Shown piece by piece: positions 2,234 through 59,968 of a stretch of 64,000 nt of DNA; the stretch's first letter is position 1; each line of letters starts with the position of its first letter. This DNA comes from Eledone cirrhosa (lineage: Eukaryota): assembly GCA_964016885.1 (NCBI GenBank), contig OZ024744.1, forward strand, positions 71,734,001-71,798,000. The letters run 5' to 3'. Below the pieces are notes generated by a model. It had not been told where the DNA came from and did no database searches. It worked only from the letters and a program-made list of their open reading frames with translations. A program made the translations under genes and the position numbers.

Positions 2234-2332
2234 ACTGGTACAGTACTGTTTCGAATTCCGTGGAGAATGCGCTAGTCATCGATTAATAATAAACCAATAA
2301 ACATCAAATTCTGGAAACTCTCATCAACCAGC
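2234..2332 (-). ncRNA. Type-I hammerhead ribozyme, family B, long stem II, within a ~500-nt non-coding unit (~1975-2490)
   Basis: Minus strand: GCTGG-TTGATGA-GAGTTTC...GGAATTC-GAAA-CAGTACTG-TA-CCAGT. Stems I and II pair; stem III is the palindrome ACAGTACTGT. Confidence 0.75.
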
Positions 2333-2505
2333 AATCCTTTAAAAGGATTCCCAAAATCCACCTTATTACTAAATTTTCTATCCATATCTGAGGCTTTCAA
2401 TTATCTTTTTTTTTTTATAAACATACCGTATATCTTTAGATATACGAAATTCATAAATACATATTTGTATACAGCTATGTCGAAGCCAAATTATAATTAT
2501 ATATA

Positions 2506-2622
2506 TGAGTTCAAATCCCGCCGAGGTTAACTTTGCCTTTCATCCTTACGGGGTGGATAAAATAAAGTACCAGTAAGACACTGGGATAATTGCTGGCCTT
2601 GTGCCAAAAGTAGAAACAATTA
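2506..2622 (+). mobile_element. 5'-truncated tRNA-derived SINE (main family)
   Basis: B-box gagttcaaatccc, core gcctttcatccttacgggg..gataaaataaagtacc, tail ggccttgtgccaaaagtagaaacaatt; flanking duplication attataattatatat. Confidence 0.9.
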
Positions 2623-3654
2623 TAATTATATATATATATATATTGAAAATTAAATTAAGGGTTGTCATGTCTGAGAGACATGCACCATATCCACTGCAGA
2701 ATAAGCTCCAAGATTCCAATCAATAGATCCGAGCATTTTATATCAACTAGAAATAGATTGACATATATATATAAAATAAACATATAAACATATGAAACAA
2801 TCTCAGGGAATAATTTGAAAAGTGTGTAAGCACACATAGCTAGGTAGGTAACCAATTAAAGTTTAACTAGAACTTCAAATATAGATACCTTTTAAAATGA
2901 TTAATCTCCTTTGTATATATTTCTTTAAATAAAAAATATATTTCACCAATTAATCGGTAAATTTCAGTAGTCAAATCCCGGAATATATATATATATATAT
3001 ATATATACATGTAGTCGATCGATGACGATTCAGTTATCCTTCGTTTACAAATTCTAGTTAAACGATTTGGTTTTTGATGCTGCGAGAATTCTTTTGTTGT
3101 CTCTCCCGAAAATAACCACCGAAAAAATTTCAACTAGTGGACTTCCTCTTTTGTCTAAAGTCACATGACTACAGACTGGATTACTGCTACAATGATACAG
3201 GCAGTGGGAAATTCTGGGGGTACAGCTGAAGTTTTAAAAAATAAAAGACAAAACCATCGGAAGAAGGAACTCCTGTTCGAGCGTGGAAGTACTTATGTAT
3301 TATATCTATATGTATTACTTGTGCATTATATAACTTGTTATGTAATTTCCGGGAGTTCCAGAAATCTATCGTAGATTTTATCGATTATATCGATTTTAAT
3401 CAATCGGAGATGGTCCAGGTATGAAAATCCTTTTTGTATAGATCGTCATTTTGATGTATGTATAGTTTGTGCCTTCGGTCGGTTATCTTGGTGTCACATT
3501 TTATAACTACGGTGTTCAACTCTGGACTTAATGTTTGTTTTGAACTTTCGATCCATCGATTGCTTCAAAAGAAATCGAATCGTATAGGCTGTACTGCAGA
3601 TAATTTTCAATTAACAAATATTATATATATATGTGTGTGTGTGTGTGTGTGTCA

Positions 3655-4085
3655 GGTCGCTCTCGAGTGCTACTGGTAACATGTAACCCAATATAACCTG
3701 TCTCATGGTCGGGTCGTCGGCGACTAAACCGCCAACCCCACCAAGCTTGCTTGGTGAGGAGGGTGATATTTGGACACCCTGTGGGATGAAATACAAGACC
3801 CGGAAAAGGGCGGAAGAACTCAGCAAATAATAGTTTATTTGTTTGTTTTTTGTTTTTTTTTCACCTGGGTGTGAAAGAACCCAGTTGTTGTCACCACACC
3901 TTTCTACGGGAGGAAACTGAAAAAAAAACCCCTGAGGTTTCGGAAGCATCCGATGATGTTGACCAGTTCTCCTTTTCGGGTAATGTTTTCAATGCTCAGA
4001 GAGTGGGATTGGTCGAGTGCAAGGCCTTTCCCCACTTAAAAAACCTTCAAAGCACAGGCATTACTTGTTCAGGATATGTTACAGG
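3655..4085 (+). repeat. Unclassified interspersed repeat, possibly an RTE-type LINE 5' region; related to ~10560-10780
   Basis: Both sites share gagagtgggattg..agtgcaaggcctttc..cacttaaaaaa.cttca.agcacag. Confidence 0.5.
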
Positions 4086-4240
4086 TTTGTGTGGCTGGCT
4101 AGCCTAAAAGTACACTAAACTCTATAATTTGACATGCGATTACAGTACTCCAGCCAGAGTTTGCAGCCATCATATATATATATATATATATAATTACAAT
4201 GTGCTTATAAACCAAAATTAAAAGTTCAATATATTTAATC

Positions 4241-4341
4241 ACTGACAATTGTTTCTTCCCATAGTCGTATACCTCCAATAGCAACTTATTTTATTTAACA
4301 CTTTGTTATTAGTTAGCATGAACCATAGGAATCATCAGAGT
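4241..4341 (-). ncRNA. Type-I hammerhead ribozyme, family C, intact core, long stem II, within a (TA)n-flanked ~460-nt unit (~4192-4650)
   Basis: Minus strand: ACT-CTGATGA-TTCCTATGG...CTATGGGAA-GAAA-CAATTG-TC-AGT. 9-bp stem II, palindromic stem III, GUC cleavage triplet. Confidence 0.85.
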
Positions 4342-56930: not shown

Positions 56931-57499
56931 CCATTATTTATTTTATTATCCCTCAATTTTTTTTTCTGCCTTGTTTTCGCTCGTCTTGTTTTCCTTTGTC
57001 TTATCATTGTCAATTATCCTAATTTTATTATACACTAGACCACCCAAGACCCGGTCGACCACGTTCACTTCAGAATATTGTATAAAAATCATTTTCACTT
57101 AAAAATAATTTTTAAATAATTAAAATATACACAGATATATATAATGTGAAATGAAACTGGAATATATATATATACGTGTGTGTATGTATATATATAAATA
57201 TGTGTTTGTATACATATATATATATCTGTATGTGTGTGTGTATATATATATATGTGGGTGTCTGTGATCTATATACACTGGTCATAGACACACACACACA
57301 CACACATACATATATATATATATATATATATATATATATATATATATATATATATATATATATACACACAATCACATATATTTATATACACAACACAACC
57401 ACCAGCTCTTTCTCTCTCTTTCATTCTCCTTCTCTGTCTCATCTCCCTTTCTCTGTCTCTCTCTTTCAATCTACTCTCTCACAACCACTATAATGTGTG

Positions 57500-57850
57500 C
57501 ACTCTGATGTTCAGAGCATTGCAGGGAGAAGCGTGCTGTTGAAGAGGTTTTGCGCGAGTGGTTTCGTCGAGGTTCGCTTTCAGCACATCCTTTGCTGAAT
57601 GGACGCTCTCTAGCCTGATCTTATTCTCTGAGAAATATCAGTATCCATGTCACTTTCCATGGTTATAGTTTGGCCAAGATACAGATCGCATATCACCTCC
57701 TCGATTTCATCGTCTGCAACCACAACTTGACTGGGTGCTACACCTTCGAACCACATGTACTTTGTTTTCGTACGACTGATCCTCAGGCCGACCGCCGAAT
57801 CTCTGGTGTTCAATTCATCCAGCATGATTGATCTGTAGCTGCTTGGTACT
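57500..57850 (-). mobile_element. RTE-clade RT fragment
   Basis: MLDELN...VGLRISRTKTKYM...YLGQTI...ISQRIRSG. Confidence 0.8.
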
Positions 57851-58174
57851 TTCTGTGATGTCATATGGCAGCCCGCCATTGATTTGCACACCGCCGTCCT
57901 AGTCGATGCTTTCTTGTTGTAGTTTAGGCTGGTTGTTTTCGAGATACATTGTTGACCCTCGTATTCAAGAGAGCTGCTCCCATCATTAGGATCAAAGAGA
58001 ACTGATTACCGTAGTTAGAGGATGAGATCTAATTAGGTTTTGGTTTCAGGCATCCTTGAACGACATTTCATTAAAAAAAGAAAATTCTTGACTTATAAAC
58101 ACCCTCCCGTGGAAGTGACGTTTTTTTGGAAAATATTCCCTAAATGACGCTTATTATTGTATATATACGATGAT

Positions 58175-58936
58175 GGTGGATTGGCAGTATCGGTAGAGGG
58201 TCGGACGCCATGCTTTCCAGCATAGTTACGTCCCTTTACGATCTGAGTTCAAATCCCGCCGAGGTTGACTTTGCCTTTCATCCTTAAGGGGTCGATAAAA
58301 TAAAGTACCAGTAATGCACTGGGTAATTGCTGGCCTTGTGCCTAAAGTAGAAACAATTATTGTATATATACGATAAAATAAAGAATCAGTAATGTACTGG
58401 GTAATTGCTGGCCTTGTGCCTAAAGTAGAAACAATTATTGTATATATACGATAAAATAAAGAATCAGTAATGTACTGGGTAATTGCTGGCCTTGTGCCTA
58501 AAAGTAGAAACAATTATTGTATATATACAATACGGCGTTCGATTGGCAGTATCGGTAGAGGGTCGGACACCATGCTTTGGCGCATAGAGTTACGGCCCTT
58601 GCCATTCTGAGTTCAAATCCCGCCGATGTTAACTTTGCCTTTCATCCTTACGGGGTCGATAAAATAAAGTACCATTAATGCACTGGGTAATTGCTGGCCT
58701 TGTGCCAAAAAGTAGAAACAATTATTGTATATATACAATATAAAGACAGTGGATTGGCAGTATGAGATAAACGTCAGACACCTCGCTTTGCAGCATGGAG
58801 TTATGGCCCTTTATGTTCTGAGTTCAAATCCGCCTATATTAACTTTGCTTTTCATCCTTACGGGGTCGATAAAATAAAGCACCAGTAATGCACTGAGGTA
58901 ATTGCTGGCCTTGTGCCAAAAGTAGAAACAATTATT
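58175..58936 (+). mobile_element. Tandem cluster of main SINEs: three full copies and two 3'-only copies
   Basis: Heads at 58175, ~58534 and ~58749; short 3' copies in 58371-58520; the spacer attattgtatatatac is repeated. Confidence 0.92.
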
Positions 58937-59365
58937 TTATATATTTCCATCATTGTACTGCTTTATATATATATATATACTATCAGAATGGCCCGGTGTT
59001 GCTCGGGATTTGCTCTAGGGTTCTTATATATTTGGTATATATTTATCCTTATAGAGCCTCGTGAAATAAATACGTTTGTTTATATTTTGTTATTGTGTAT
59101 GCAAAAATATCTGTACACGAATATATAATTATATATATATATATATTTCACTTCTCTCAACAACTTAATGGCGAATCAGATCACTTCAGATTTGTACGTG
59201 TGTTATATAGTTATAGAGGTATTTATTTACGCTTTAATTTATATTTAATATATTTTTAATTATCGTGTCTATATTCTGCCTTCCATAGGTTATAGATTCC
59301 ATACACTGGTGGTTTTTCCCTGTTTTATTGATGGCGCACTGTATCTTTTCAACATATTGTATATA

Positions 59366-59968
59366 TTTCCATTGGAAATTCTCTGGATTTCCAATTTTTG
59401 GAATGATGAAACCGTCGGTAACAGCAATAGAACAGGTGATTATTTAAATCGTTTTTTAATTTATTTAGAGAATTGTTTGATAACCGCTTGCTCCGCTCTT
59501 TTTATATTGTTCTGGTATCTCAAATTAGTACCATCGAACCACAATTATTATAAACATCTTACATATTTCTACAAGTACTTAGTGCCTGTTGAAGTATTCA
59601 TCCACTTTTATAATTTTTCTCCTTATGTAGAGAACAAAACGTTGAATAATGCTACTAATTTAGGTGGCAGTATCAACACGTTTATAATAAACAGCTATTA
59701 TCTGCGACCTGATTTTGCGTGTATGTCATTTTAACGGCTTGACCGCATGTGTTGGGCAGGAAGCGAAATATTTACTTGCTGTAGGGCTGGCAACCTTATA
59801 GTATGGAAATAAGCTGTCTGAAGATCCATTTCTTTCCATTGGAAATTCTCTGGATTTCCAATTTTTGGAATGGTGAAACCGTCGGTAACAGCAATAGAAC
59901 AGGTGATTATTTAAATCGTTTTTTAATTTATTTAGAGAATTGTTTGATAACCGTTTGCTCCGCTCTTT
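59366..59968 (+). mobile_element. HHR element, family I: 467-nt monomer, about 1.3 tandem units
   Basis: 59366-59501 is repeated at 59833-59968; ends in (TA)n. Confidence 0.88.
59813..59892 (+). ncRNA. Type-I hammerhead ribozyme, family I, intact
   Basis: GCTGT-CTGAAGA-T-CCATT..ATTGGAAATTC(TCT)GGATTTCCAAT..AATGG-T-GAAA-CCGTCGG-TA-ACAGC. Confidence 0.88.

What the first reader, a model, noticed from the sequence alone, without database searches (positions are those of the whole stretch)
2234..59892. Palindromic stem III is kept across unrelated HHR families despite different sequences
Seen: stem III segments AACGTT (A), ACAGTACTGT (B), ACAATTGT (C, E, J), ACATATGT (E), ACATTAGTGT (D, one mismatch), ACAG(A/C)(G/A)CTCTGT (F, consensus ACAGAGCTCTGT), ATATATAT (G) and ACCGTCGGT (I). 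Most cannot close a stable intramolecular loop. Known: minimal PLE and amphibian HHRs cleave as dimers through palindromic stem III. Inference: cleavage would need two motifs, so it would occur mainly in multimeric transcripts. That could let tandem arrays be processed to monomers while single insertions spare host RNAs.
Basis: partly seen in the sequence, partly recalled or inferred. Interest (0 to 1): 0.7.

Follow-up and report, generated by a model that had tools for sequence, protein, structure and literature searches.

The report
Dimer-pairing hammerheads of Penelope-type retroelements
These are scattered, about half decayed copies of a known small self-cutting RNA motif carried by a Penelope-type jumping gene and by short non-coding repeats that likely use its enzymes; the short palindrome recurs across this genome and likely lets two copies pair to cut, a design already in print, while the idea that it spares host RNAs is untested.

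Summary
The listed segments are real and are stem III of type I hammerhead (HHR) motifs: 19 motifs of ten families lie in the window, 10 with a canonical core. A scan of 1.2 Mb elsewhere in the genome that did not ask for palindromes found 158 motifs (controls 5 and 3); in 35 sequence clusters, 49 of 63 inner pairs that no single hairpin can form are Watson-Crick (17.8 expected), all four pair types occur, and two E subfamilies swap AT for TA. One family (AGAACT) is an exception. J ends a Penelope-like RT/GIY-YIG ORF; D and I are non-coding 442- and 460-nt retrozyme-like units. Palindromic helix III and dimer cleavage in such elements were published in 2014. Side lead: three units carry a U6-type promoter. 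The scan noted this before in this genome and others.

The parts
1633..1669 (+). Family A HHR, decayed copy (core and stem III changed)
2235..2332 (-). Family B HHR; stem III 2240-2249; long stem II; core C3>T in this copy
4241..4342 (-). Family C HHR; stem III 4245-4252; long stem II; core intact
11796..11831 (-). Family A minimal HHR; stem III ACGT 11801-11804; core G8>A in this copy
17139..17186 (+). Family D HHR, copy 1 (core intact, one stem III change) in a 442-nt non-coding unit interrupted by SINEs
17959..17967 (+). U6-promoter-like word TATGCAAAT, 94 nt before the D core, TATA-like word about 45 nt further on
18046..18093 (+). Family D HHR, copy 2 (core G8>A); stem III 18076-18085
18570..18586 (-). 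Family E1 inverted arm: stem III and cleavage site only
18607..18685 (+). Family E1 HHR (ACATATGT); 5' strand of stem I lost at the inversion junction
42529..42573 (-). Family F HHR, inverted arm, core decayed
43043..43087 (+). Family F HHR with the U3-A8 core variant; 12-nt stem III
54383..54448 (-). Family G HHR, inverted arm
54517..54582 (+). Family G HHR; stem III 54566-54573
54880..54926 (+).
55814..55908 (+). Family E2 HHR (ACAATTGT), intact
59408..59425 (+). Family I upstream copy: stem III and cleavage site, core lost by 5' truncation
59813..59892 (+). Family I HHR, intact, in a 460-nt non-coding unit
61454..61491 (-). Family J HHR in the 3' pseudo-LTR of a Penelope-like element, intact
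61657..63032 (-). 5'-truncated, broken Penelope-like ORF (RT, Cys linker, GIY-YIG-like endonuclease) upstream of J
63156..63193 (+). Family J HHR, opposite strand, core U4>A
63914..63951 (-). Family J HHR, core U4>A and one stem III change

Best explanation
The segments are stem III of type I hammerhead motifs in a Penelope-like element (J) and in short non-coding repeats (D and I shown, the others likely) that are likely mobilised by Penelope enzymes, and the palindrome is likely kept because two same-family motifs pair through it into a double hammerhead that cuts better than one motif alone. Shown: the folds, the genome-wide excess of complementary inner pairs, the PLE ORF behind J, the circularly permuted units of D and I, two fixed 3' ends per family, arms longer than one unit, arrays of identical units. 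Inferred: a transcript across a tandem pair or array folds so that stem III and stem I form between neighbouring motifs, both sites are cut, the unit is ligated to a circle, the circle holds one motif and so stays mostly uncut while PLE reverse transcriptase copies round it into solo, two-armed or arrayed insertions. Partner choice needs stem I as well as stem III, so unrelated families that share ACAATTGT (C, E2, J) would not cross-cut. Most genomic copies are dead ends; sparing of host RNA would be a side effect.
For: Inner pairs 49 of 63 WC against 17.8 expected, types AT 21, TA 12, CG 9, GC 7. Subfamilies E1 and E2 differ by a two-sided change at the innermost pair: ACATATGT 13 of 14, ACAATTGT 15 of 15. 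Majority palindromes hold in genomic copies: B 7 of 15, C 10 of 16, I 27 of 32, D 18 of 19, J 40 of 40. Self-duplex beats two hairpins by 9.5 to 16 kcal/mol for the undamaged 8- to 16-nt segments. Tandem pair of the 310-nt family folds as a double hammerhead, P 0.97, a single motif does not close stem III. Six of 8 clusters with three or more same-strand hits have 6-nt stem III. Units within an array differ by 0 to 0.7 nt, both arms included, arrays by 1.3 to 4.3 nt. I: 3' ends at +87 and about +185, one of each in 9 of 9 two-armed insertions; 12 of 26 arms exceed one unit; D: ends at +143-148 and +170-184, matching the two RT start sites of PMC11167929. J: 36 of 48 copies follow a PLE C-terminal match; homologues carry PF26215 and PF01541. 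PMC4209133: single motifs no cleavage, dimers and trimers low cleavage.
Against: No cleavage or RNA data for this organism. Three of five tandem pairs do not favour the double fold in ViennaRNA (I 0.03, D 0, F1a 0). Family AGAACT (13 hits in 9 random stretches; 18 of 18) spreads without a complementary centre. F and H can close 4-bp hairpins alone. Single invertebrate HHRs can cleave efficiently (PMC7229834). In the Anolis PLE, cleavage needed protein, was not needed for insertion in vitro, and no RNA-seq read ended at the site (PMC11167929). Clusters are related, so the permutation figure is not a probability. No J locus with two same-strand pLTR motifs flanking an ORF was seen in 6 extended loci. 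Arms longer than a unit could also come from uncut multimeric transcripts.
Confidence: 0.7

Rival explanations
1. The motifs are protein-assisted: the PLE protein, predicted to be a dimer, folds or brings together two RNAs in trans, so cleavage is gated by the protein and not by tandem arrangement in one transcript.
For: PMC11167929 passages: no cleavage without PLE protein, cleavage kept with endonuclease mutants. Most insertions are solo (52 of 90) or inverted (22 of 90). Three of five tandem pairs are not predicted to fold as double hammerheads alone.
Against: Shown for one Poseidon element only; compatible with, not exclusive of, pairing through the palindrome. The 310-nt array is predicted to form the double fold unaided.
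Confidence: 0.3
2. One reading: the dimer requirement is selected so that single insertions do not cut host transcripts.
For: Very high load (about 75 insertion clusters per Mb) would make active monomers costly; Xenopus retrozymes are reported as depleted in introns and exons (10.64898/2026.07.22.740005).
Against: The palindrome is set in the mobile master copies, whose direct interest is an uncut template; copies decay after insertion (9 of 19 window motifs lack a canonical core); the Xenopus depletion suggests insertions are still selected against; not testable here without genes or RNA.
Confidence: 0.15
3. Many of these motifs cleave as monomers, helped by loop I-loop II contacts, and the palindrome only adds an optional dimer route or serves as an RNA dimerisation signal for the two-armed insertion step.
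For: F, H, I close hairpins of 3-4 bp; H keeps a kissing-loop-like CTAG centre; two-armed insertions use two RT starts, one per arm; PMC7229834 on invertebrate monomers.
Against: 6-nt and 4-nt stems cannot form a second pair alone; stems II of 36-79 nt in many families do not look like canonical tertiary partners (not tested structurally).
Confidence: 0.2
4. The palindromes are an artefact: any hairpin is an inverted repeat, and AT-rich DNA does the rest.
For: True for A (four consensus bases) and a concern for G (ATATATAT).
Against: Only pairs impossible in a hairpin were counted; 16 of 49 are CG or GC; control hits are at chance level; G's commonest form is ATATGTAT, 13 of 25.
Confidence: 0.03

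Closest known systems
Minimal and small-palindromic-helix-III type I HHRs of metazoan PLE pseudo-LTRs (Cervera and De la Pena 2014, PMC4209133; read parts 1-2 of 4, through the Discussion)
   Same: Type I fold, palindromic 15.2-16.2 and loop 3, extra base 5' of stem II, long stem II, short stem I, U3-A8 core variant, many families per genome, mostly single copies, opposite-strand pairs 100-700 bp apart, dimer model.
   Different: Here stem III runs from 4 to 24 nt, includes odd lengths, and stem II reaches 79 nt; the base of stem II is often a mismatch rather than G10.1-C11.1; the motif count is far above the 2,000-9,000 per genome given there.
Metazoan non-LTR retrozymes (PMC7229834, passages; Li et al. 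preprint 10.64898/2026.07.22.740005, parts 1-2 of 5)
   Same: Non-coding tandem units with one type I HHR each, monomers to multimers, proposed circular intermediate and PLE mobilisation; axolotl motifs work better as dimers.
   Different: D, I and the F1 units (442-468 nt) are above the 170-400 nt of the 2020 paper; arrays here are often two-armed and diverging; expression and circles are not shown here; three units carry a U6-type promoter.
Neptune-type endonuclease-bearing PLEs (Craig et al., 10.1101/2021.04.23.441226, passages)
   Same: RT, Cys-rich linker and C-terminal endonuclease, 5' truncation, inverted arms, tail, insertion at microsatellites (family J).
   Different: Clade not fixed by a tree; no full copy with both pseudo-LTRs was seen.
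Double hammerhead of avocado sunblotch viroid and newt satellite 2 (Forster et al. 1988; Luense et al. 2016/2017; titles in the reference list of PMC6765202 only)
   Same: Two motifs complete each other's stem III.
   Different: Papers not held; details are second-hand from PMC4209133 and PMC6765202.

Membership tests
Type I hammerhead ribozyme | Core CUGANGA (or U3-A8 variant), GAAA and UH in type I order | tested here: met
   Met in 10 of 19 window motifs and in family majorities; decayed or missing in 9
Type I hammerhead ribozyme | Three helices around the core | tested here: met
   Descriptor hits 158 versus 5 and 3 in controls; B stem II fold
Type I hammerhead ribozyme | Match to an Rfam hammerhead model | tested here: not met
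   No hammerhead family among 65 matches at E <= 1; these variants differ in stem sizes from the curated models
Type I hammerhead ribozyme | Self-cleavage at H17 | not testable with these tools
   No RNA holder listed; 5' ends of arms near the site 7 of 63 for D (3.6 expected), 1 of 26 for I
Dimer-type (double) hammerhead | Self-complementary stem III beyond what a hairpin can pair | tested here: met
   exception AGAACT
Dimer-type (double) hammerhead | Double fold favoured in tandem transcripts | tested here: inconclusive
   P 0.97, 0.48, 0.03, 0, 0 for five tandem pairs
Dimer-type (double) hammerhead | Dimer cleaves faster than monomer | not testable with these tools
   Needs kinetics
Penelope-like element (J) | RT plus C-terminal GIY-YIG ORF upstream of the HHR | tested here: met
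   direct Pfam scan of three ORF pieces was blank, homologues carry PF26215 and PF01541
Penelope-like element (J) | pLTR-ORF-pLTR partial tandem | tested here: inconclusive
   Not seen in 6 extended loci; 10 of 30 loci are inverted pairs, 20 solo
Penelope-like element (A-I) | Own RT/endonuclease ORF | tested here: not met
   0 PLE matches upstream of A, B, C, E, F, G, H, I copies and 1 weak of 43 for D; queries were 10 J-like proteins only
Non-LTR retrozyme (D, I) | Short non-coding unit with one HHR, head to tail or circularly permuted | tested here: met
Non-LTR retrozyme (D, I) | Expressed as linear and circular RNA | not testable with these tools
   uninformative
U6-type (type 3 Pol III) promoter (D, F1a, F1b) | Upstream word and TATA spaced as in this genome's U6 genes | tested here: met
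   Word at -77 to -79 in 3 of 3 U6 genes read, absent from 110 nt before 3 U2 genes; in 27 of 33 D copies
U6-type (type 3 Pol III) promoter (D, F1a, F1b) | Transcription start and polymerase | not testable with these tools
   No RNA data

The most novel reading that the evidence does not exclude
Several retrozyme families here have captured the host's U6 promoter just upstream of the hammerhead, with a T-run terminator about 170-180 nt after the cut site in D. Pol III would then make a short RNA with one motif, which can pair in trans through palindrome plus stem I with any same-family copy, including single insertions in host pre-mRNAs. The palindrome would be a family-specific, concentration-dependent trans-cleavage switch over some 200,000 insertions, the reverse of 'single insertions spare host RNAs'.
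Probability: 0.1. Interest if true: 0.7.

Novelty: new member of a known kind. Interest (0 to 1): 0.25.

Why it matters
The core claim is in print, so the finding itself adds a well-sampled confirmation: dozens of families in one genome with two-sided changes at positions only a dimer can pair, plus a natural exception family as a control. The load is large, about 130 motifs and 75 insertion clusters per Mb in the sample (roughly 400,000 and 200,000 if extrapolated to 3.0 Gb, against 126,247 motifs reported for axolotl). What PLE hammerheads do in vivo is still open; stems of 4 to 16 nt, young arrays of identical units and a possible U6-type promoter make this genome a convenient test set.

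Tried and rejected
Rfam scan of the window found no hammerhead. A descriptor demanding a paired first base of stem II gave 0 hits and was relaxed. B was first read as coreless; alignment of 15 copies corrected that. Pfam on 16 window ORFs and 3 J ORF pieces did not name the J protein; PDB search was blank. No RNA holder listed for the 310-nt array unit; contigs of four runs of unrecorded kind show a head-to-tail joint that tandem DNA gives as well, so no evidence on circles. Pile-up of 5' ends at the cleavage site as a fossil of cutting: weak for D, absent for I, and main arms cross the site by the way loci were chosen. No 5' pseudo-LTR found for J in 6 extended loci. Cross-family cutting among C, E2 and J through shared ACAATTGT was rejected because their stems I differ. 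Cluster F32 (L119) is a microsatellite false positive and F19 and F23 are doubtful; all three were left in the counts. Luense et al. was not held. Searches for octopus or cephalopod hammerheads and for retrozyme plus Pol III promoter listed no paper on these points; subscription journals are missing and no supplements were read, so family lists in supplements may cover this lineage.
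Full report
Setting. The window is G000:C28:71734001-71798000 of a 3.0-Gb animal genome, rich in microsatellites, SINEs and LINE fragments. The repeat landscape recalls an octopod cephalopod; that label is recalled, not tested.

Observation. All listed segments follow GAA in type I hammerhead folds. I count 19 motifs of ten families, A to J; 10 have a canonical core, 7 have a changed core and 2 have lost it by truncation. J lies beyond the stated end, H was omitted, and A's palindrome is only the four consensus bases. 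Rfam did not detect any of them. Genomic copies fix the family forms: A ACGT 7 of 15, E, F, G, H; B 7 of 15, C 10 of 16, D 18 of 19, I 27 of 32, J 40 of 40. Copies from the genome search are the best matches to the window copy and so lean towards its sequence. B has a 74-nt stem II and a normal majority core. F carries the U3-A8 core described in PMC4209133.

Is it more than chance? A stem is an inverted repeat by definition, so I counted only pairs that would enclose fewer than three bases. I fetched 120 stretches of 10 kb at regular positions (two flank the window) and ran a descriptor scored on core and stems I and II only. It gave 158 hits at score 15 or more, against 5 in reversed and 3 in shuffled DNA; with the 7 window hits they form 37 clusters. 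In the 35 clusters with hits outside the window, 49 of 63 inner pairs are Watson-Crick (permutation mean 17.8; 0 of 20000), in four types; the innermost pair is Watson-Crick in 25 of 34; 28 lengths are even and 7 odd; control hits show 7 of 19. Three doubtful clusters were kept in. Clusters are related, so this is strong but not a formal probability. A direct two-sided change is seen inside E: ACATATGT in 13 of 14 copies of one subfamily, ACAATTGT in 15 of 15 of the other. One abundant family keeps AGAACT, with a non-complementary centre, in 18 of 18 hits.

Energies. For isolated stem III, hairpins are impossible or unfavourable for A, C, E, G, J, marginal for B, D, I and favourable for F and H; the self-duplex is better in all. 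In context no single motif closes its own stem III above P 0.11; tandem pairs give the double hammerhead at 0.97 (310-nt family), 0.48, 0.03, 0 and 0; in window I the two stems III pair at 0.99 but stem I at 0.05; in the inverted G locus the motif does not form. The model lacks Mg2+ and tertiary contacts.

What carries them. J follows a broken ORF with RT motifs, a Cys linker and an endonuclease-like end; its homologues carry PF26215 and PF01541, and 36 of 48 J copies have such a match upstream. This is a Penelope-like element, Neptune-like by the linker described in the Craig preprint. No other window family showed such an ORF with J-like queries. D and I are circularly permuted non-coding units of 442 and 460 nt with two preferred 3' ends each; in I all 9 two-armed insertions use one end per arm, and 12 of 26 arms exceed a unit. 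That matches the two internal RT start sites of a PLE in PMC11167929. Four arrays of a 310-nt unit have near-identical units within an array, both arms included, and differ between arrays, as expected from copying round one circle.

Arrangement. Of 90 insertion clusters, 52 are solo, 22 inverted pairs, 8 have two same-strand hits and 8 three or more, one of them false and two loose. In the window the same-strand neighbours are D1/D2 (one stem III change, one core change), I (upstream core lost) and J1/J3 (J3 decayed); E1, F and G are inverted pairs. None offers two intact motifs in tandem. A coreless upstream copy could still be cut by the downstream core, since only its stem III and site are needed (inference).

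Mechanism. Most likely (0.7): tandem transcript, double hammerhead, unit release, ligation, a circle with one weak motif that stays intact as template, PLE-primed insertion. The steps after transcription are inferred from genomic marks and from PMC4209133 and PMC7229834, not shown. Against a strict dimer requirement: efficient single coral HHR and 2-bp helices called typical of invertebrates; protein-assisted cleavage, dispensable for insertion in vitro; PLE clades without HHRs proliferate well. Host sparing was not testable.

Side lead. D, F1a and F1b carry TATGCAAAT 94, 89 and 101 nt before the core and a TATA-like word about 42-45 nt on; three U6 genes have the word at -77 to -79, three U2 genes lack it in their last 110 nt. 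It is in 27 of 33 D copies, and 20 of 36 word-plus-TATA sites in the 1.2 Mb precede an HHR-like core. T-runs inside the units would stop Pol III before a second motif, so multimers would need read-through. Function untested.

Comparison and verdict. Palindromic helix III, dimer action, single copies and opposite-strand pairs are all in PMC4209133 and reviewed in PMC6765202; retrozymes as PLE derivatives in the 2026 preprint. Earlier notes of this scan reached similar readings here and elsewhere; I treated them as leads. New members of a known kind; interest 0.25.

Noticed in passing
window 17959-18045; L095, L071, L216-L218: U6-type promoter word plus TATA just upstream of the HHR in three retrozyme units, spaced as in this genome's U6 genes.
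   Followed up: partly
window 17327-18424; L203, L212, L213, L254, L259: A tRNA-like SINE sits at the same site (+109 after the cleavage site) of the D unit in 6 of 6 loci checked, twice in the window.
   Followed up: partly
L063, L074, L089 (310-nt unit); L095, L071 (467-468 nt): Young arrays of up to 17 units, often two arms diverging from one point, units identical across both arms.
   Followed up: partly
L091:4839, L227-L238: Abundant HHR family with stem III AGAACT, no complementary centre: a natural control for the dimer model.
   Followed up: partly
window 54880-54926; L042, L050, L128, L129, L140: Family H copies are often 5'-truncated within or just before the core and form tight inverted pairs; the loop keeps a central CTAG like a kissing loop.
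   Followed up: no
window 42391-43225, 54333-54632, 63226-63407, 18520-18735: Long near-perfect inverted repeats from two-armed insertions; if transcribed they would be double-stranded substrates for A-to-I editing (inference).
   Followed up: no
window 28589-36554 and 38554-41482: Several LINE copies with endonuclease and zf-RVT domains, two in tandem at 77% identity and one inverted.
   Followed up: no
window 58153-58944, 17327-17796, 41765-42149: Tandem and partial-tandem copies of the abundant tRNA-like SINE.
   Followed up: no
window 14253-14729 and 23432-23639: Degenerate minisatellites of 20 and 41 nt.
   Followed up: no
window 2843-2955, 16986-17051, 36849-36894, 55588-55648, 55935-55986, 61390-61432: Further short pieces of HHR-bearing families lying 3' of the motif, without the motif.
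   Followed up: no
G000:C19:31.78-31.84 Mb; G000:C3:307.35-307.45 Mb: Tandem clusters of U6 (about 1.8-kb period) and U2 (about 2.2-kb period) genes.
   Followed up: no
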